53,571 bases of DNA from Thermostichus sp. DRC_bins_24 (GTDB taxonomy: Bacteria; Cyanobacteriota; Cyanobacteriia; Thermostichales; Thermostichaceae): NCBI GenBank assembly GCA_039794845.1, contig JAUQVK010000072.1:1-53571 (forward strand). Reading direction: 5' to 3'. The notes under the pieces are model-generated. The model saw only the letters and a program-made list of their open reading frames with translations. It had not been told where the DNA came from and made no database searches. This document shows, one piece after another, positions 1,987-27,712 of this stretch. The number at the start of each line of letters is the position of its first letter. Within the stretch, counting starts at the first letter, position 1. Both the position numbers and the translations under genes were made by a program.

Positions 1987-2593
1987 TCAGCCCCCCCTCA
2001 GAATTCCATCCAGCCCTTTCCGGTGATATGCCTAGGATGGCCCGTAGAGAAACGCTTAGCGGAACGGAGTCCTTTACCTACCACTTTTCCTAGGGTTTCC
2101 CCAAGTCCCAAAATCCTTGTTGGTCCATTCCGAGACTCAATGCCCAAACCTTCTCATGTTCTCATTCCCATGTTCTGCTGAGAGGGTGACAATCACAGAT
2201 ACAGCCATTGTGCGGGTTTGACAGAGCTTGTGTTTCCTGCTCCCGCTTTCGCGGGGCCCGGAGGGCTAGCCCTCCAGAGGGTAGATCTCAACTTCCATAG
2301 TTGTTACCTGTGACCGGCGGTGCCCTATGGTGGGCGAACGCACTGGCGTGCCCTGGGCGTAAATCGAAATACTCTCAAATACTCTCAATTCTTTACAAAC
2401 TCCGGCTCGGCAGCCGGGATCCCTTGCTCTGGGACATCTCCGAGACAGAGGGCTCCCGTATCTAGCCGGCTTCGTTGAAGAAAAACAAACAGATCCAGCC
2501 TATCGGGAGCGGTTCCTCGAAGATGAGAGAAGGGATCCTTAATCCCCTTTGGCCCGATCCGTTTGCATTGCCGTTCTGACGGAGTTTGGCGAG

Positions 2594-3376
2594 ATGCCAA
2601 CCCAGCACCCCCTACGCAAGAACTCCGTCCCGCTGACGCGAGCAGCCACCTCCCCGACCTCCACCCCAGCAGCCCCAGTTCTCTTTTGCGGGCGCGGGAT
2701 CCACAAAACCTACCCGATGGGGGAGATCACCGTTCAGGCCCTTCAGGATGTGGATCTCGACATCTATGAAGGGGAGTTTGTGGTCATTCTCGGGGCCTCC
2801 GGTAGCGGCAAATCCACCCTGCTCAATATCTTGGGGGGTCTGGATCTGCCCAGCCAGGGGGAGGTGTGGTTTCGGGACTGGGATCTCAGCCATGCCGATG
2901 ATGCCACCCTGACCCGCTTTCGCCGCTACCACATTGGCTTTGTCTTTCAGTTTTACAACCTCATCCCCAGCCTCACCGCCCAAGAGAATATTGCCCTGGT
3001 AACGGAATTGGCACCGGATCCCATGCCCCCCCGCGAGGCGTTGGAACGGGTGGGGCTGGGGGATCGCTGCGATCACTTTCCGGCCCAGCTTTCGGGGGGA
3101 GAGCAGCAGCGGGTGGCGATTGCACGGGCGATTGCCAAGCGACCGGAGGTATTGCTCTGTGATGAGCCGACGGGGGCCCTGGATTTTGCCACCGGCAAAC
3201 GGGTGCTGGAGGTGCTGGAGAGCGTCAACCGCGAGTTTGGCACCACCGTTGCCGTGATCACCCACAATGCCGGGATCGCCGCCATGGCGGATCGGGTAAT
3301 CACCATGCGCAGCGGCCAGATCACCCATATTGAGCGCAATACCCACAAGGCCCGCCCCGGCGAGTTGGAGTGGTAA
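2594..3376 (+). CDS. ABC transporter ATP-binding protein (LolD/MacB-like)
   Basis: Walker [37 protein letters not shown]. Start placed at ATG 2594. Confidence 0.95.
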
Positions 3377-3378
3377 CG

Positions 3379-5772
3379 ATGCTGCATCCTCTCGATCGCA
3401 AGCTACTGCGGGATCTGCGCCAACTGTGGGGGCAGGTGACGGCCATCGCCTTGGTGGTGGGTTGCGGCATCGCCTGTTTTGTCTTGGCCCTGAGTGCCTA
3501 TCAATCGCTGGCCCTGACCCAGCAGACCTATTACGACCGCTACCAGTTTGCCCATATCTTTGCGGAGTTGAAACGGGCCCCCCAACGCTTGGAGGCCCAG
3601 ATTGCCGGGATCCCGGGGGTGCAACAGGTGCAAACGCGGGTGGTGGCGGATGTGACGCTGGATGTGCCGGGGTTGGCGGAACCGGCCACAGGGCGGCTGA
3701 TCTCAATTCCCCCAGTTCGCGCCAGCGGGACGGAGTCCTTGGATCAGCCCATGCTCAATCGCGTGTTTTTGCGGCAGGGGCGCTACCCGGATCCGCAGCG
3801 GGACCATGAGATTCTGGCCAGTGAAGCCTTTGCCGAGGCCAATCACCTGAAGTTGGGGGATCGGATCGGGGCGATTATCAACGGTCGCCGGCAATCGCTG
3901 CAAATTGTGGGCTTGGCCCTTTCCCCGGAGTACATCTACGAGATTCGCGGGGCGGGGGATCTCTATCCTGACAATCGCCGCTTTGGGGTGCTGTGGATGG
4001 GGGAAGCAGCCCTCAGCACCGCCTTTAACCTGCAGGGGGCTTTTAACAGTGTCGCCCTGACGGTGATCCCCGGTGCCCATGAGCAGGCGATCATCACCCA
4101 ACTGGATCGGCTGACGGATCCCTATGGGGGGCGGGGGGCTTACAGCCGCGAGAACCAGGTCTCCCACCGTATCCTCAGCGACGAGATCCAAAGCCTCGAG
4201 GTGACGGCGACGATCTTGCCGACGATGTTTCTGGGCATTGCCGCCTTTTTACTGCACGTGGTGCTCTCCCGCCTGATCAGTACCCAACGGGAGCAGATCG
4301 CCGTTCTCAAGGCGTTTGGCTACAGCAACTGGGGCATCGGCGTTCATTACTTGAAACTGGTGCTGGGGGTGGTGGCGGCGGGATCCGTGCTGGGCCTGGG
4401 GTTGGGCATGTGGTTGGGGCGGGGGCTGACCGGCCTCTATGCCGATTTTTTTCGCTTTCCGATCCTTACCTATCGGGCCAGCCCGCAGGTGTTGATCCTG
4501 GCTTTGTTGGTGAGTGGGGGGGCGGCACTGGTGGGGGGGCTGTTGGCGGTGCAACGGGCGATCCGCTTGCCCCCGGCTGAGGCCATGCGTCCGGAGCCTC
4601 CGGCGAGTTTTCGGCCCACCTTGGTGGAGCGGCTGGGCTGGCAGCGACTGTTTTCCCCGACGGGGCGGATCATTCTGCGCAACTTGGAGCGACGACCGAT
4701 TCGGGCGGGCCTATCCATCATTGGGATCAGCTTTGCCGCCTCGTTACTGTTGGTGGGGCTGTTTTTCCGAGATGCTGTCACTTACCTGATGTCGGTGCAG
4801 TTCTTTCAGGTGCAGCGGGAGGATGTCACGGTCATTTTCAACGAGCCGCGTCCGGCCCGCACCCGCTTTGAGCTGACCCAACTGCCGGGGGTGTTGCAGG
4901 TGGAGGGGTTCCGCATGGTGCCCGCCCAGTTGCGCCATGGACAGTATCACCAGCGGCTGGCCTTGACGGGACTGCCCCAGGGGGGCCAGTTGCGGCAACT
5001 GTTGGATCGCAACCTGCGCCCTCAGACGCTGCCCCTGGAGGGGGTGCTGCTCACCGACCAACTGGCCGAGATGCTGCACATCCAACCCGGCGAATGGCTC
5101 CAGGTGGAGGTTTTGGAGGGATCCCGGCCCCGGCGAGCGGTGCAGGTGATGGGGGTGGTGGATGAATTTCTGGGCTTATCGGCCTACATGGAGCTGGGAT
5201 CCCTGAATCGCCTCATGCGGGAGGGGGAAACCCTGTCGGGGGCCTATCTTTCCATTGATGCGGCCCAATCGCAGGCCCTTTACGATCGGCTCAAGGCCAT
5301 TCCTGCCGTGGCGGGGGTATCCTTTCGAGAAACCCTGCTGGAGAGCTTTCGGGATATCAGCGCCCGCAACCTTCTGGTCATGACCGGGATCCTGTCGCTG
5401 TTTGCGGCCATCATCACCTTTAGTGTGGTCTACAATTCCGCCCGCATTGCCCTTTCGGAACGCAGCCGTGAGCTGGCCAGCCTGCGCATCATCGGCTTTA
5501 GCCGCCACGAGATCAGCGTCATTTTGTTGGGGGAACAGAGCCTGTTGGTCTTGGTGGGGATCCCGCTGGGTTGGTTGCTGGGGTTTGGCTTGAGTGCTTC
5601 CTTGGCCAAGGCGTACGTCTCAGAGTTGTATCGGATCCCGTTGGTGATCCATCGGGTCACCTACGCCACGGTGGGGTTGGTGGTTTTGCTGGCCGCCGTG
5701 GTGTCCGGGATCTTGATCCGTCGTCAACTGAATCACCTGGATCTAATTGCGGTGTTGAAAAACCGAGAATAG
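3379..5772 (+). CDS. ABC transporter permease (MacB/FtsX-type, duplicated domain)
   Basis: ~800 aa; '[14 protein letters not shown]' and '[15 protein letters not shown]' FtsX motifs; directly follows the ATPase. Confidence 0.92.
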
Positions 5773-6000
5773 TGCTTACATCCTGGAACCAACAACGACC
5801 TCATCTTGCCTGATTCTGTCTCTGCCACCGAGCCCCTCAACGTGGAGCAGTAACGATGGGCCGAACGCCTGAAAGGCACCCACTATCGATCTGCTGTTTG
5901 TTGCGAATATATATCAATTTTCAACTTTTTCTTAACAAGTCACTTCGTTTCTTGAGGACTCGTTTTACTTTGTTACCTGTAGAGTGCTTCCAACACAATT

Positions 6001-6474
6001 ATGAGTCTTGTCGCTCAAGTGATCGCCCAGTCGGATGCAGCAGATCGCTTTCTCAGCACTGCTGAGTTAAACAAACTGCAAGATTTCTTTAGCAAAGGCC
6101 AACTCCGGGTCAGCGTGGCTCAAAAGCTGGCGGCAAATGAGCAAAAAATCGTAGATGAGGGCAGCAAGCGTTTTTGGGCAAAGTGTCCGAATACTCCCAG
6201 CAATAGTGGCAGCCCTCAAAAAACGGCTCTTTGTCAACGGGATCAGGGTTGGTATATACGCCTGGTTAGCTATTGTGTTCTGGCTGGTAACGATAAACCC
6301 CTAGAAGACATTGGTCTGAATGGCATGAGGGATATGTACATTTCCTTGGGTGTGCCACTGCCCAACTTACGTGTGGCAATGGGTTGCCTCAAAGACGTAG
6401 CAGCGGAGTTGATGTCTGCTGAAGAAATGGCTCTAGCGGCTCCTTATTTTGACCGCTTGATCCGTGCTTTTTAG
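6001..6474 (+). CDS. apcD4: Far-red-absorbing allophycocyanin alpha-type subunit (ApcD4-like)
   Basis: Phycobiliprotein motifs 'ADRFLSTAEL' and bilin Cys in 'ALCQRDQGWYIRLVSYC'; divergent ApcD-like sequence; gene order apcD-apcB-isi. Confidence 0.85.
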   Translation: MSLVAQVIAQSDAADRFLSTAELNKLQDFFSKGQLRVSVAQKLAANEQKIVDEGSKRFWAKCPNTPSNSGSPQKTALCQRDQGWYIRLVSYCVLAGNDKPLEDIGLNGMRDMYISLGVPLPNLRVAMGCLKDVAAELMSAEEMALAAPYFDRLIRAF

Positions 6475-6637
6475 TCCATGAAGCTTAGATTTATGAATCT
6501 TTAGACCCTATTTGTAGAGTTTCATTTGCAGATGGATCAGTCCTTGTTCTGTGGTTGTAGGTGATTGAGAAGAAAAGAATATCGGAATATCGCAAAAGAT
6601 CATTGCACCTCGCACACTTAGCAACAAAGGAAAACCC

Positions 6638-7123
6638 ATGCAAGATACCATCACATCGATCATCAATCCAGCTGATGAAAAAGGCGCTTACCTAGATGCT
6701 GCTGAATTGGAGAAACTGAATCGCTATTTTCAAAGTGGTAGCCTGCGTGTGAAAGCTGCAACAACCATCAGTTCTAGTGCCAGCAGCATTATCAGTAAAA
6801 CCGTTGCCAAGAGTTTGCTTTATGGGGATATTACCCTTCCCGGGGGCAATATGTACCCCACTCGGCGCTATGCTGCGTGCCTACGGGATCTGACCTATTT
6901 CTTACGTTATGCCACCTACGCCATGTTGGCTGCGGATGTCTCCATTTTGGATGAGCGAGTTCTCAATGGTCTCAAGGAAACGTATGCAACGTTGGGTGTG
7001 CCTGTCGATCGAGTGATCGAAGCTCTCAATGCCATGAAAGATGTGGTAACAGAAAGCGTCGGTACAGAAGCAGGACAAGAGATGGGCTTCTACTTGGATC
7101 ACATCATCTCCGGCTTGAGCTGA
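6638..7123 (+). CDS. apcB3: Allophycocyanin beta subunit paralog (ApcB3-like)
   Basis: '[20 protein letters not shown]', '[17 protein letters not shown]', '[13 protein letters not shown]'. Paralog name assigned from context. Confidence 0.88.
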
Positions 7124-7147
7124 GCTCGTTTTGCGCAATCTTGGGAT

Positions 7148-7172
7148 CCTCCTTCCATATTCTGGGAGGAGG
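7148..7172 (+). other. Intercistronic stem-loop between apcB3 and isiX
   Basis: CCTCCTTCCA-TATTC-TGGGAGGAGG, no poly-T tail. Confidence 0.5.
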
Positions 7173-7207
7173 TCAATTTTCACCATTGATGGAGGGCAGA
7201 GTGAATA

Positions 7208-8586
7208 ATGAACGCTAAATCAGCAAAACCTTCAACTTATCCTTGGTGGGCAGGCAACGCTCGGTTTATTAACTTATCCAATACCTTTATTGTCGCACAT
7301 GTTGCCCAGGCAGCCTTAATGATGCTTTGGGCCGGGGTATTTACTCTATTTGAGTTGGCTAAGTTCAACCCAGACTTGCCCATGTATGAACAGGGATTAA
7401 TCCTGTTGCCTCATCTGGCAACTTTGGGCTGGGGAATCGGTGAAAATGGACAGATTGTGGATACTTTCCCATACTTTGCTATCGGCTGTATTCACATGGT
7501 CGCAGCAGGTGTCTTAGCCGGAGGAGCTTATTTTCACCAGACCAAGCTCTCTCCCAACTTGGATATGGAATTTGGAAAGGCATCGAAGTTCCATTTTACC
7601 TGGGATGATGCAAAAACTTTGGGTATCATTTTGGGACATCACCTCCTGATATTGGGCTTTGGAGCTCTCCTGTTGGTTGCCAAAGCTATGTTTTTCGGGG
7701 GACTGTACGATGCTGCAACAGAACAGGTGCGGTTGGTAACTACGCCTACCTTAGACTTTGCCACCATCTTTGGTTATCGAACGCATCTTTTCGATGTCAA
7801 TAATCTAGAAGATCTAGTGGGTGGACATATCTATGTTGCCGGCCTTCTGATTTTAGGGGGTATGTGGCACATTCTCGTTGCACCCTTTGAGTGGGTAAAA
7901 GCTCGTTTTCTCTTCTCAGCAGACGGGATCCTCTCCTATTCTCTGTTCGGTATTGCCCTAGCCGGATTTGCGGGTTTAATTCGCTGGCTTATCCGGTGGA
8001 GTTTTATGGGCCAACTCTGGAGCTGAAATCTGCCTTTGCTCCATACTATTTTGATCCAACCCAAACGGGAGCTTGGAGCCATTCTTCTCGAGTTTGGTTG
8101 GCCAATGCCCACTTCTATTTGGCCTTCTTTTTCCTACAGGGATCCCTGTGGCATTTTCAGCGGGCTATGGGCTTTGATGTCAGCCAGATGGTTCGGTCTT
8201 GGCAACAAGGTTGGCAGGAGGTGACCTCCCAAGCTGTGTACCAAAACCAGTTTCAATGTCGGCCCCAACCCAACCTGGATATCTTCTATGAACCTTCTCG
8301 AGTGAATCCTGAACCTTTGTCTATATCTTCGATGAACAGCTACTTGTATCAGCTTTCGCAGGGATTACAGTCAAGATCTCTATCAGCAGTTAACGGTATT
8401 CAAAAAATCCTTTATGAGACAGGCTATACGTTCAGAAGAACAATCTTTTATGAGCCCGCTAAAAAAGGAAATTCCTTTCATTCCTCTGAACTGAAGTTTG
8501 ACTATGCCCCATGTAAACGAGACTTTACCTTTTCAAAATCTCGTCCTGCTATGCCCCAAGTTATTTATGAATCAAGCCAAACCTAA
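7208..8586 (+). pseudogene. isiX: IsiA/CP43-family chlorophyll-binding protein IsiX, frameshifted near 7970
   Basis: ORF 7208-8026 has '[10 protein letters not shown]', 'AHVAQAAL', 'LLPHLATLG', 'LGHHL', 'EDLVGGH'. Homology continues in another frame as '[15 protein letters not shown]...[22 protein letters not shown]' to the stop at 8586. Confidence 0.85.
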
Positions 8587-8629
8587 ATTGATCTGATTGA
8601 TGGGATTACAACTTTGAGTTGGTTTATCC

Positions 8630-8663
8630 CTCAGGTGAGGTAATTGCCTCTCCTGAGCTTTTT
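8630..8663 (+). terminator. Rho-independent terminator of the apcD4-apcB3-isiX cassette
   Basis: CTCAGGTGAGG-TAATTG-CCTCTCCTGAG hairpin followed by CTTTTT. Confidence 0.7.
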
Positions 8664-8993
8664 GTTGTGCCCTTGCCAGAGAAAGATTCTGTAGAAATAT
8701 TTAAAAGATTGCGATTTTACCAAGACTACGGAAATGTCCCTTTTAACCCCTGAGCCTTTGAGCCATGATTGGTTGGGTAGTGATAAAAGCATTGCAACGT
8801 CAACCCTTGGGCACTTCGATTAATTGCCTTGTTGCAAATCAGATAAGGCTAGAAAACCTATTCTATCGTTGCTATTCTCAATAAGGCTTGGATTTTTCGA
8901 TGTACCCTATTGATCTTCTTTACCATCTTCTGTAACCACTTTGGGCTTAAGTTTTGAAAACGAGAAAAACACAGTGATCGAGGGATAGTCATC

Positions 8994-10436
8994 ATGCCAA
9001 AACCCGAAGCTCGCCACCCGACGACAGAAGAGGGGGGCGCTGTTCAAGCAGAGACTCCGCGCAAGGCACCCAACCATTCCCAACCTACTTCTGCCCTGCC
9101 CCATTTGGGTTGCAAACGAACCTGGAACCCCTTTTTCTACACCTTGGGTGGAGCGGGTCTTGTGGCTCTGGTGGGCTGGGCCTTTTGGCCGTCGCCGGTT
9201 CCGGTGGATATGGCGGTGGTGGAACGGGGGTTGTTGCAGGTTACGGTTGAAGCTGAGGGCAGAACTCGTTTGCGTGAACGTTTCGAGATCGCCGCCCCGG
9301 TGGATGGCCGCTTAGAACGGATTCCGGTGCGGGTGGGGGATCCTGTTTCCTCAGGCGACATCGTTGCTCGTATCGATCCCTTACCCTTGGCTTCTCAGGT
9401 ACAGTCGATCCAGGCCCAGATCCAGCAGTTGGAGGCGGAAAAACGGGGGGTAGATACCCAACGCCCCAAAGCGGCCTTACTGGTGCAGGCAGAGGCGTCT
9501 ATCGCGGCTGCTCAAGCTCGCTACCGGCAGACCCTCGCCCAACAAGCCGCAGCTCAGGCCATTTGGGAGCAAGCCCAACGGGAACATCAACGACTTGAGA
9601 ACCTTTTTCAGCAAGGGGCCATTCCCAGACAAGCTCTGGAAGAGGCGGAACTGGCGGAAACCAGCCGTCGTCAGGCCTTAACCGCCCATCAGCAGGAAGT
9701 GGAGCAGGCCCAAGCTGCTATCTTTTCTGCTCAACAGGAATTGCAACTGCTGCAGGCCCAGCAGCGGGATCCCGACTATCTGCTCCAGGTGTACGATGCT
9801 CAAATTCGTTCCTTGCAAGCCGAGTTGGCCAGCCTGGCCGATTCAGCCCAGCGCACCACCATGACGGCTCCGGCGGCAGGGCAGGTGCTGCGGGTGCATC
9901 AAGAGAGCGCCCGTTTTGTCCCGGCGGGTACGCTGCTGGTGGAGATCGGGGATCCCGGCCAGCTGGAGCTGGAGATTGATGTTCTTTCCAGCGATGCGGT
10001 CAGGATTCAACCCGGGGATCCCGTTCAGGTTCGGCAGTGGGGGGGATCCCAGGCGTTACGGGGCAGTGTGCGTACCGTCGAGCCAGCCGCCTTTACCAAA
10101 GTGTCGGCCTTGGGGGTAGAAGAGCAACGGGTCAACATCATCGCCAGTATTGAGTATCCTCCTGTCCGTTTGGGAGATGGCTACCGCATTGAGGCCGAGG
10201 TGATCATCTGGCAGAACGAGGAGGCCTTGAAACTCCCCCTCAGCGCTCTGTTTCGTTGCCAAGATCAGTGGTGTGTTTACGTGGCGGAAGAAGCACGTGC
10301 CCAACAACGGCAGGTGGCTTTGGGCCAGCGCAGCACCACCATGGCAGAGGTTTTGCAGGGCCTGGAAGCCGGCGAAACGGTGATCCTCTACCCCTCCGAT
10401 CACGTTCAGCCTGGGCGACGGATCCAACCTCGCTGA
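8994..10436 (+). CDS. Efflux membrane-fusion (periplasmic adaptor, HlyD/MacA family) protein
   Basis: N-terminal TM, lipoyl half-motifs 'APVDGRL...VGDPV' and 'APAAGQV', coiled-coil hairpin, 'KVSALGVEEQRV'. Confidence 0.92.
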   Translation: MPKPEARHPTTEEGGAVQAETPRKAPNHSQPTSALPHLGCKRTWNPFFYTLGGAGLVALVGWAFWPSPVPVDMAVVERGLLQVTVEAEGRTRLRERFEIAAPVDGRLERIPVRVGDPVSSGDIVARIDPLPLASQVQSIQAQIQQLEAEKRGVDTQRPKAALLVQAEASIAAAQARYRQTLAQQAAAQAIWEQAQREHQRLENLFQQGAIPRQALEEAELAETSRRQALTAHQQEVEQAQAAIFSAQQELQLLQAQQRDPDYLLQVYDAQIRSLQAELASLADSAQRTTMTAPAAGQVLRVHQESARFVPAGTLLVEIGDPGQLELEIDVLSSDAVRIQPGDPVQVRQWGGSQALRGSVRTVEPAAFTKVSALGVEEQRVNIIASIEYPPVRLGDGYRIEAEVIIWQNEEALKLPLSALFRCQDQWCVYVAEEARAQQRQVALGQRSTTMAEVLQGLEAGETVILYPSDHVQPGRRIQPR

Positions 10437-25831: not shown

Positions 25832-27712
25832 ATGCCTCAAAGGTCTTCTAAGCTAAAAAATAGGCGCAGCTCCATCACAGGTTGCTTGCAAGAGCAGTCT
25901 TTGCCCAACCCTGTGGAGTCAACTCCGGTGCAGCTTCTTTCTCCCTCTGAACATCCGTTGCCAAGCGTCTCCCCGACGGTGCTGTTGGTGGATGACGACC
26001 CGTCGACACGGGTGTATTTGGCGCGTCTGTTGGTTCATGAAGGCTATCGAGTGGTGGAAGCCGAAGGCGGCGACCAAGCATTGCAGTTGTTCGGCCAAAC
26101 TCAACCCCAAATTGTGCTGTTGGATGCCCTGATGCCGGGGATGGACGGATTCGAATGTTGTCAGAAGTTACGGACATTGGATGCGGATCTGCCCTGTTTG
26201 ATGATCACCTCCCTTGACGATCAAGCCTCTGTAGACAAAGCTTTTGCCGCCGGGGCAAGCGACTACATCACCAAGCCCATCCACTGGCCGGTGATGCGCC
26301 AACGAATGCATCACCTGCTCAAGGCACGCCAGAATTTGTTGAACCTGCGCCAACAGGCAACCCGTGAACAGGCCCTCAACCGTGTTGTTCGAGCCATACG
26401 CACCTCCTTAGAGTTGGAACAGGTGTTTTCCGTGGCCACCCGCGAGATTTGTCATCTGCTGGAGGCGGATCGGGTCAGCATTAGCCGCTATCAACCGCAG
26501 CGACAGGATTGGCGGATCATCTCCGAATACCAAACCCAAGCGGATGGCTACTTGGGCTGCTTCATTCCCGATCCCCACAACCCCATGGCGGAGCGCCTGA
26601 GGCAGGGAAAGGTGGTGGCCATTGAAGCGGCCAGCCGAACCCAAGACTGGATCAGCATTCCTTCTATGGCCAAAGCCTATCCTGGCAGTTGGCTATTGGT
26701 GCCGCTCTATGGCGGCGGCGAAAGCCCCGAATCCACTCCTCCTACCCTTTGGGGCAGCCTCTGTCTGCAACTGAAAACCGCCCGCCCCGGATGGTTGACC
26801 ACCAGTCATGACTTGATCTTGGCCCTAGCGGATCACCTTTCCATTGCCATTCAGCAGGCGGAGCTGTTCCAGCAAATTCAGGAGCTGAACCACACCCTGG
26901 AAGAAAAGGTACGGGCACGAACCGCCCAGCTGGATCGCCAGGTGCAGGAATTGCAACGGCTGGATCTTCTGAAAAACGACTTTCTCAGCACCGTTTCTCA
27001 TGAGTTGCGCACCCCCCTCTCCAGCATCAAAATGGGGCTTCATCTGCTCAGTTCTGCTCTGTTGCCCAGCAACGGGGTGGCCAGACCCCTCGATCTGGAA
27101 AAAGTGTCTCGGTATCTGGATGTACTGAACAAAGAATGTGAGCGGGAAATCAAACTGGTGGAGGATTTGTTGGAGTTACAGCGCCTGGAGGTGTTGATCG
27201 GCTCGCAGCAGCCCCACTGGCTGGAATTGAAAGAGTGGTTGCCACCCATAACGGATCCCTTTGCGCAAGCAGCCCGCAGCCACAACCAGATTTTTAGCCT
27301 GGAGATCCCCCCGGACTTGCCTGCCATCTGCACTTTGCCGGAGGTACTGCGCTCGGTCTTGGGGGAATTGCTACAAAATGCCCACAAATTTACCCCCGCC
27401 GAGCAGTTGATCAGCCTGCGGCTGGCCAACCATCCCGATCACCTTGAAATCGAGGTCCTCAACACCGGCGTGACCATTCCTCCCCAAGAGCAGGAGCGGG
27501 TTTTCGAAAAGTTTTATCGCGTCCCCAATCCGGATCCCTGGCGCCAGGGAGGAACAGGGTTGGGCTTGGCTCTTGTGCAGCAGCGTATGATCCTGCTGCA
27601 GGGAACCATCCGCCTCAGCAGTGAAGCCAATTACACCTGCTTCACGTTGCGGTTGCCCTGGGTTCTCTCGGCCTCTTCCGGCAAAGGCAGGCCGGCTCAG
27701 CTCAGGGGGTAG
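25832..27712 (+). CDS. Hybrid sensor histidine kinase (REC-GAF-HisKA-HATPase)
   Basis: REC 'LLVDDD...LLDALMP...DYITKP'; GAF 'ADRVSI...LLVPL'; 'SHELRTPL'; 'GGTGLGL'. Confidence 0.93.
   Translation: MPQRSSKLKNRRSSITGCLQEQSLPNPVESTPVQLLSPSEHPLPSVSPTVLLVDDDPSTRVYLARLLVHEGYRVVEAEGGDQALQLFGQTQPQIVLLDALMPGMDGFECCQKLRTLDADLPCLMITSLDDQASVDKAFAAGASDYITKPIHWPVMRQRMHHLLKARQNLLNLRQQATREQALNRVVRAIRTSLELEQVFSVATREICHLLEADRVSISRYQPQRQDWRIISEYQTQADGYLGCFIPDPHNPMAERLRQGKVVAIEAASRTQDWISIPSMAKAYPGSWLLVPLYGGGESPESTPPTLWGSLCLQLKTARPGWLTTSHDLILALADHLSIAIQQAELFQQIQELNHTLEEKVRARTAQLDRQVQELQRLDLLKNDFLSTVSHELRTPLSSIKMGLHLLSSALLPSNGVARPLDLEKVSRYLDVLNKECEREIKLVEDLLELQRLEVLIGSQQPHWLELKEWLPPITDPFAQAARSHNQIFSLEIPPDLPAICTLPEVLRSVLGELLQNAHKFTPAEQLISLRLANHPDHLEIEVLNTGVTIPPQEQERVFEKFYRVPNPDPWRQGGTGLGLALVQQRMILLQGTIRLSSEANYTCFTLRLPWVLSASSGKGRPAQLRG

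What the first reader, a model, noticed from the sequence alone, without database searches (positions are those of the whole stretch)
7955..7990. isiX frameshift explained by a 16-bp deletion between TTTGCGG microhomologies
Seen: frame A reads ...GIALAGFA| and frame B reads |[15 protein letters not shown]; the two meet on a single TTTGCGG (7967-7973). Established: IsiA-family proteins read [27 protein letters not shown] here, so about five residues are missing. Inference: an ancestral GGA TTT GCG GCN NNN TAY TTT TGC GGG contains TTTGCGG twice, 16 bp apart, and deleting between the copies gives exactly the observed sequence. Adding 16 nt back restores one 464-aa ORF (1379+16=1395 nt). The current 272-aa product would lack helix 6 and the whole C-terminal tail while apcD4 and apcB3 stay intact, i.e. 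a natural or culture-selected knockout.
Basis: partly seen in the sequence, partly recalled or inferred. Interest (0 to 1): 0.8.

Follow-up and report, generated by a model that had tools for sequence, protein, structure and literature searches.

The report
Private 16-base gap in isiX
The light-harvesting gene isiX really is broken by a 16-base gap in this assembled contig, but the same gene is whole in another assembly of what may be the same sample, so this is a rare variant or an assembly error and not a strain that has lost the gene.

Summary
isiX starts at 7208 in one frame and continues to 8586 in the -1 frame, and the two frames meet at 7967-7973. All relatives examined carry ten codons at this site where the window has 14 bases, so exactly 16 bases are missing: 9 of 9 genomes, 19 of 19 metagenome loci and 33 of 33 species genomes.

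The knockout reading does not hold. An independent contig from the run flagged as the possible source of this DNA spans 7000-8800 and carries the 16 bases. A 464-aa protein held by NCBI and Logan is identical to the two halves, 255/255 and 205/205, with ASYY between them. The broken products occur only on this contig.

The repeat that flanks the deletion is TGCGG, 5 bases. It is not TTTGCGG, because the right-hand copy follows TAC and not TTT.

Most likely this is a non-fixed deletion allele made by slippage. An assembly artefact is the main rival, and only raw reads can decide between them. The gene cluster is the published apcD4-apcB3-isiX low-light cluster. Interest is low.

The parts
6001..6474 (+). 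apcD4-like allophycocyanin alpha-type subunit, 157 aa, whole
   Evidence: PF00502 positions 1-154 of 155, E 1.6e-51. The best solved chain is 8ddy_A, E 6.9e-91. 8DDY is the helical ApcD4/ApcB3 structure (PMC10038336, passage seen).
6638..7123 (+). apcB3-like allophycocyanin beta-type subunit, 161 aa, whole
   Evidence: PF00502 positions 2-155 of 155, E 4.6e-53. The best solved chain is 8ddy_B, E 2e-88, aligned 1-161 to 1-161.
7208..8026 (+). isiX, upstream frame: 255 homologous residues, then 17 out-of-frame residues and a stop (272 aa)
   Evidence: Residues 10-254 align to IsiA chains 6k33, 6kif and 6nwa at E 1e-99 to 1e-103. Identity to P0005 is 255/255.
7969..8586 (+). isiX, downstream part in the -1 frame: end of helix V, helix VI and the C-terminal extension (205 residues plus stop)
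   Evidence: Identity to P0005 residues 260-464 is 205/205. It aligns over its whole length with 9 orthologues.
7969..7973 (+). Deletion junction: the one remaining copy of the TGCGG direct repeat. The 16 bases can be placed anywhere between 7968 and 7973.
   Evidence: table 4: 16 letters 'put in behind 7968' in one contig of X1 (depth 16.6) and one contig of X2 (depth 5.24). The inserted string begins with TGCGG and the window continues with TGCGG.
7972..7978 (+). G GGT TTA read in frame A. It has the shape of a -1 slippery heptamer and leads into frame B. It is listed only because it was tested; no support was found.
   Evidence: Sequence. No unusual downstream fold (z -0.25, 78 of 200 shuffles fold as well). 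No relative needs a shift.
5600..9000 (.). Low-GC island that holds apcD4-apcB3-isiX
   Evidence: GC is 0.39-0.50 inside and 0.57-0.64 in the flanks.

Best explanation
The contig carries a private 16-base deletion allele of isiX. In the intact allele a 5-base direct repeat, TGCGG, occurs twice with starts 16 bases apart. The contig keeps one copy and has lost everything between the two, which is the signature of polymerase slippage or microhomology-mediated deletion.

The deletion removes ASYY from the fifth transmembrane helix and shifts the frame. This allele would therefore make a 272-aa protein without helix VI and without the roughly 120-residue tail that sets IsiX apart from IsiA.

The allele is not fixed. 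Intact isiX with no amino-acid difference on either side is found in an independent assembly of the possible source run and in another public record. I read the gap as a recent deletion haplotype that the assembler happened to follow. I do not read it as a strain-defining or selected knockout.

Shown: the gap, its size, the repeat, the intact allele in the sample, and the identity of both halves. Inferred: that molecules with the gap exist, the slippage mechanism, and the loss of function.
For: Sixteen bases are missing relative to 9 of 9 orthologues, 19 of 19 metagenome loci and 33 of 33 species-genome loci. These three sets overlap in part.

a 6519-base Logan contig of X1 (depth 16.6) spans 7000-8800 with 3 other letters and the 16 letters put in behind 7968. 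A 740-base contig of X2, a strain differing in 42 letters over 7759-8323, has the same 16 letters.

the 464-aa protein P0005 (NCBI and Logan, longest contig 68,283) equals frame A at 255/255 and frame B at 205/205, with ASYY between them. The 272-aa and 196-aa products are recorded on one contig only, the window's own.

A 5-base repeat at both ends of a randomly placed deletion is expected about once in 4^5 = 1024 cases. The present gene has 0 such repeats at spacing 16 in 1358 positions.

Frame B is open for all 205 codons to the orthologous stop, so the event is recent.

The X1 contig also differs from the window at 7045, 7085 and 7086, a hint of more than one haplotype. Short-read graph assemblers do not normally create junctions that are absent from reads (general knowledge).

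The assembly as a whole is not riddled with frameshifts. Greedily chosen ORFs cover 90.2% of it with a mean of 308 aa, and no other split gene shows among 57 window ORFs.
Against: No read or contig other than the window itself shows the gap. The gap is in none of the Logan contigs laid at this site, and the broken proteins occur on no second contig. A scan of metagenome contigs for either allele found nothing.

Only contigs could be laid, not raw reads, so the existence and frequency of the deleted molecules are untested. If the MAG was built from X1, two assemblers chose different alleles, which is also what an artefact would look like.

The three other differing letters lie 46-87 bases from the end of the Logan contig and may reflect a path from another strain.
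Confidence: 0.55

Rival explanations
1. The gap is an assembly, consensus or polishing artefact. No DNA molecule in the sample lacks the 16 bases, and the organism simply has an intact 464-aa isiX.
For: The contig of the run flagged as the possible source has the 16 bases at depth 16.6, and none of the contigs laid at this site shows the gap. The broken products occur only on the window's own contig, whereas the intact protein is held by NCBI and Logan. Both halves are 100% identical to the intact protein, and frame B has no further damage.
Against: A clean 16-base loss exactly between two copies of a 5-base repeat is the mark of a polymerase, not of a k-mer graph, in which 5 bases are far below word size (inference). 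The rest of the genome looks clean: mean ORF 308 aa and 90.2% covered, and 1 split gene among 57 window ORFs. Contigs drop rare variants, so absence of the gap from Logan contigs does not show its absence from the reads (note in the output).
Confidence: 0.35
2. One reading: a fixed natural (or culture-selected) knockout. The lineage behind this genome has lost IsiX while keeping ApcD4/ApcB3, possibly under selection.
For: The deposited contig does carry the gap, and apcD4 and apcB3 are whole.
Against: The holders are hot-spring metagenome runs, not a culture. The intact allele, identical in protein, is in the possible source run and in another public record. There are no secondary mutations in 205 downstream codons. 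No second intact or broken copy exists elsewhere in the genome. Nothing shows selection.
Confidence: 0.07
3. The gap is real and is partly compensated. Ribosomes slip back one base on G GGU UUA (7972-7978) and make a near-full-length IsiX that is five residues shorter in helix V.
For: In frame A the junction reads G GGT TTA, the X XXY YYZ pattern, and a -1 slip there enters frame B.
Against: The heptamer is the native in-frame GGG TTT AAY (G-F-N) of the orthologues, seen from the shifted frame, so its presence is a by-product of the deletion. There is no unusual downstream structure (z -0.25, 78 of 200 shuffles fold as well), and I saw no Shine-Dalgarno-like stretch upstream (by eye). None of the 9, 19 and 33 relatives needs a shift. 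A helix shortened by five residues is unlikely to fold as before (inference).
Confidence: 0.02

Closest known systems
IsiX of the low-light photoacclimation (LoLiP) cluster apcD4-apcB3-isiX in hot-spring Synechococcus (putative ecotypes A4/A14; strain A1463). Sources: PMC4477158 and PMC10038336, passages read.
   Same: Same gene order apcD4, apcB3, isiX. The N-terminal part belongs to the PsbC/IsiA family. The C-terminal extension brings the protein to 464 aa, against 342-358 aa for solved IsiA chains. The two phycobiliprotein genes match the solved ApcD4/ApcB3 nanotube 8DDY best. The cluster sits in a low-GC island, in line with the 'xenologous' origin stated in PMC4477158.
   Different: This contig has a 16-base gap in helix V. 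No PAS/GAF/kinase photoreceptor gene lies next to the cluster. The nearest named relatives are only 64% identical over the tail (Synechococcus sp. H65.1 and H55.6) or 79% (a Thermostichus MAG protein, P0006).
IsiA, the iron-stress chlorophyll-binding antenna of photosystem I (solved in 6K33, 6KIF, 6NWA)
   Same: Residues 10-254 align without gaps to IsiA at E 1e-99 to 1e-103. The downstream frame holds the helix-VI motif with two histidines.
   Different: IsiA ends soon after helix VI. IsiX has about 120 further residues, which PMC10038336 proposes (not shown) to thread the far-red allophycocyanin nanotube. According to the papers, IsiX is regulated by light and not by iron.
Slipped-strand or microhomology-mediated short deletions between direct repeats (general knowledge, not from a call)
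   Same: The intact allele has TGCGG twice, starts 16 bases apart. The contig keeps one copy and has lost the interval.
   Different: Whether the event happened in a cell could not be tested.
dnaX-type programmed -1 ribosomal frameshift (recalled; named also in notes returned)
   Same: An X XXY YYZ heptamer sits at the frame junction.
   Different: No conservation, no stimulatory structure, and an intact allele exists.

Membership tests
IsiX (LoLiP IsiA-like antenna protein) | PsbC/IsiA-family chlorophyll-binding core (PF00421) | tested here: met
   Frame A matches PF00421 at E 9.6e-49, profile positions 2-250. Frame B matches profile positions 443-479 at 23.9 bits, cut-off 25. IsiA chains are the best solved matches.
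IsiX (LoLiP IsiA-like antenna protein) | C-terminal extension of about 100-127 residues beyond IsiA (PMC4477158, PMC10038336) | tested here: met
   Frame B runs to a total of 464 aa, against 342-358 aa for IsiA chains. The tail aligns with 9 orthologues.
IsiX (LoLiP IsiA-like antenna protein) | Encoded directly downstream of apcD4 and apcB3 | tested here: met
   6001-6474 and 6638-7123 match 8ddy_A and 8ddy_B best. isiX starts at 7208.
IsiX (LoLiP IsiA-like antenna protein) | One uninterrupted reading frame | tested here: not met
   The frame is broken at 7969-7973 in the window. It is uninterrupted in the X1 contig and in P0005.
LoLiP operon as described in PMC10038336 and PMC4477158 | A photoreceptor gene (PAS/GAF/histidine kinase, cyanobacteriochrome) in the cluster | tested here: not met
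   The neighbours are an ABC ATPase, an FtsX-type permease (3370-5772) and a HlyD-family protein (8994-10436). The nearest GAF-kinase is at 25832-27712.
Microhomology-mediated (slippage) deletion | Direct repeat at both ends of the lost segment in the intact allele, one copy kept | tested here: met
   The 16 inserted letters begin with TGCGG and the window continues with TGCGG. The base before differs (T versus C), so the repeat is 5 bases.
Microhomology-mediated (slippage) deletion | The deleted form exists in DNA molecules (reads) | not testable with these tools
Programmed -1 ribosomal frameshift | Slippery heptamer in the upstream frame | tested here: met
   G GGT TTA at 7972-7978 in frame A.
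Programmed -1 ribosomal frameshift | The frame break and signal are conserved in relatives | tested here: not met
   0 of 9, 0 of 19 and 0 of 33 relatives have a break.
Programmed -1 ribosomal frameshift | Stimulatory RNA structure downstream | tested here: not met
   7979-8078 folds at -25.9 kcal/mol against a shuffle mean of -25.08, z -0.25.

The most novel reading that the evidence does not exclude
The deleted haplotype is real and reaches appreciable frequency in some layer or sample of the hot-spring mat. That would be a natural isiX-null line which still makes the far-red allophycocyanin ApcD4/ApcB3. It would be a ready-made test of the published proposal that the IsiX tail anchors and measures the allophycocyanin nanotube on photosystem I.
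Probability: 0.1. Interest if true: 0.4.

Novelty: new member of a known kind. Interest (0 to 1): 0.1.

Why it matters
It matters mainly as a caution. A gene that looks lost in one metagenome-assembled genome is whole in another assembly of what may be the same sample, so this contig should not be used to infer loss of the low-light antenna. The record's two open frames (272 aa and 196 aa) are pieces of one 464-aa gene. If raw reads show that the deleted form is real and common somewhere, it would be a natural mutant for testing what the IsiX tail does. On present evidence that is unlikely.

Tried and rejected
1. Metagenome scan for either allele, using the window's flanks and a variable gap of 1-17 bases: 0 matches. 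The flanks had to match exactly, so this says little.

2. RNA: no RNA holder was listed, and the one metatranscriptome run of the same study (X4) laid nothing. This gives no information on expression.

3. X3 (another study) covers only 7238-7275, 7520-7676 and 8017-8322, not the junction.

4. Programmed -1 frameshift: rejected.

5. The idea that the island was inserted into an ABC-transporter/HlyD operon. In the 3 congeners that have the HlyD orthologue (G004, G008, G010), no match to the permease lies in the loci, which extend about 1.5 kb on each side of the match and less where a contig ends. The idea is not supported.

6. A genome-wide census of split genes. 107 overlapping same-strand ORF pairs were listed but not scanned against Pfam, because they lie outside the window and would have had to be typed. 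Only the coarse figures are used.

7. A second isiX copy in the genome: none. The other tblastn matches are 27-60% identical.

8. Earlier notes of this scan: nothing for this genome. The sequence and word look-ups returned unrelated IsiA clusters and frameshift cases. None was used.

9. Papers holding both 'isiX' and 'frameshift': 7 of 7 concern isiXhosa, not the gene. The broader five-term search listed no isiX paper among the 10 shown. So I found no printed report of a broken isiX in the held library.

10. The DNA of the record that encodes P0005 could not be fetched.

Full report
**What is in the sequence.** The window is one whole contig (C72) of a 115-contig, 3.5-Mb genome. Its DNA is held by a hot-spring metagenome run.

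Three genes lie head to tail on the + strand.
- 6001-6474 is a 157-aa phycobiliprotein.
- 6638-7123 is a 161-aa phycobiliprotein.
- A PsbC/IsiA-family gene starts at 7208.

The two phycobiliproteins match chains A and B of entry 8DDY best (E 6.9e-91 and 2e-88). 8DDY is the helical ApcD4/ApcB3 far-red allophycocyanin (PMC10038336, passage seen). So this is the published apcD4-apcB3-isiX low-light cluster (PMC4477158 and PMC10038336, passages seen).

The third gene is split. Frame A runs 7208-8026 (272 aa) and is homologous up to ...GIALAGFA (residue 255). Frame B is the -1 frame and is homologous from CGFNSLAYP... at 7969 to the stop at 8586.

**Size of the gap.** I took isiX orthologues from nine other species of the same genus and family (67-77% DNA identity). 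All nine read G-F-A/T-A-S-Y-Y/F-C-G-F in ten codons where the window has 14 bases, so exactly 16 bases are missing. The same ten codons stand in 19 of 19 metagenome loci (12 found, 7) and in 33 of 33 species-genome loci. The three sets overlap in part and are not independent. The missing residues are ASYY; the other four bases are the frame offset.

**The decisive result.**
- In run X1, which the tool flags as the possible source of this DNA, one 6519-base contig at depth 16.6 spans all of 7000-8800. It has three other letters (7045, 7085, 7086) and 16 letters put in behind 7968.
- A 740-base contig of a second run of the same study (X2) comes from a strain that differs in 42 letters over 7759-8323. 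It carries the same 16 letters.
- In the protein collection, the exact 272-aa product and a 196-aa downstream product are each recorded on one contig, the window's own.
- Their 90% cluster also holds a 464-aa protein from NCBI and Logan, on a contig of up to 68,283 bases.
- That protein is identical to frame A over 255/255 residues and to frame B over 205/205, with ASYY between them.

So the intact gene, with no amino-acid difference on either side, exists in at least two assemblies other than this contig. The broken form exists only here. The genome holds no second isiX copy.

**The repeat.** The 16 inserted letters begin with TGCGG and end with TAC, and the window continues with TGCGG. The left copy is preceded by T and the right copy by C, so the direct repeat is 5 bases, not 7. 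TTT at that codon occurs in 0 of 9, 0 of 19 and 0 of 33 relatives; TTC occurs in 1 of 9 and 2 of 33.

A 5-base repeat at the ends of a randomly placed deletion is expected about once in 1024. The present gene has no 5-base repeat at spacing 16 in 1358 positions. The idea of a deletion between microhomologies therefore stands, with a shorter repeat.

**Consequence for the protein.** Hydropathy of the intact protein gives five clear hydrophobic segments. The fifth covers about residues 240-262, and ASYY (256-259) lies in it. The helix-VI motif with histidines 307 and 321, and the tail up to residue 464, lie downstream.

The 272-aa product would thus have an altered end of helix V, no helix VI and no tail. 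PMC10038336 proposes, without showing it, that this tail threads the ApcD4/ApcB3 nanotube.

**Real allele or artefact.**
For a real allele:
- The clean loss between two repeat copies is what a polymerase does, not what a k-mer graph does.
- The X1 contig differs from the window at three more places, which hints at more than one haplotype. These places lie 46-87 bases from the contig end, so the hint is weak.
- The assembly is otherwise clean: 90.2% is covered by ORFs with a mean of 308 aa, and no other split gene shows among 57 window ORFs.

For an artefact:
- Nothing but this contig shows the gap.
- The downstream frame has no secondary damage.

I put a real, non-fixed allele at 0.55, an artefact at 0.35 and a fixed or selected knockout at 0.07. 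Only raw reads can settle it.

**A programmed frameshift?** In frame A the junction reads G GGT TTA, a slippery-heptamer shape that leads into frame B. This is simply the native G-F-N codons seen from the shifted frame. The RNA downstream folds no better than shuffles (z -0.25), and no relative needs a shift. I reject it, at 0.02.

**Comparison with what is known, and verdict.** The cluster is a further member of the published LoLiP cluster. Its nearest named relatives are hot-spring Synechococcus/Thermostichus genomes. It sits in a low-GC island and has no adjacent photoreceptor gene.

I found no printed report of a broken isiX in the held library. Supplementary files were not consulted.

The finding is a correct reading of the contig, but the biological claim built on it does not hold. 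Interest is low.

Noticed in passing
window 5600-9000; also 800-2200: Two low-GC islands (GC 0.39-0.50 and 0.41-0.47) in a contig of about 0.57-0.64 GC. The first holds apcD4-apcB3-isiX. The second holds a 370-aa ORF (795-1907, - strand) with a GIDE domain.
   Followed up: partly
window 2549-5772 and 8994-10436: The isiX island lies between an ABC ATPase plus an 800-aa FtsX-type permease and a HlyD-family protein. In G004 the HlyD orthologue (C1 about 0.556 Mb) and isiX (C1 about 1.50 Mb) are far apart. No permease match lies in the loci around HlyD in G004, G008 or G010, so the cluster sits at different places in different species.
   Followed up: partly
L076/L077 (G010:C36:726-2008): The HlyD-family orthologue of genome G010 matches in two overlapping pieces (query residues 18-298 and 292-448). 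It may be a frame break in that 350-contig genome.
   Followed up: no
window 7045, 7085, 7086 (in apcB3): The X1 Logan contig reads A where the window has G at all three places. Positions 7085 and 7086 are adjacent in one codon. All three lie 46-87 bases from the end of that contig, so they may reflect a second strain's path.
   Followed up: no
G000 contigs C13 (25184-26164), C78 (2605-3582 and 4465-5427), C108 (324-1142): Four further PsbC/IsiA-family genes are in the same genome, 45-60% identical to IsiX. The C13 copy (60%) is the closest, and the two on C78 are in tandem.
   Followed up: no
window 25832-27712: A response-regulator/GAF/HisKA/HATPase hybrid kinase lies 17 kb from the cluster. 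It is the nearest GAF-domain sensor, but there is no evidence that it is the LoLiP photoreceptor.
   Followed up: no
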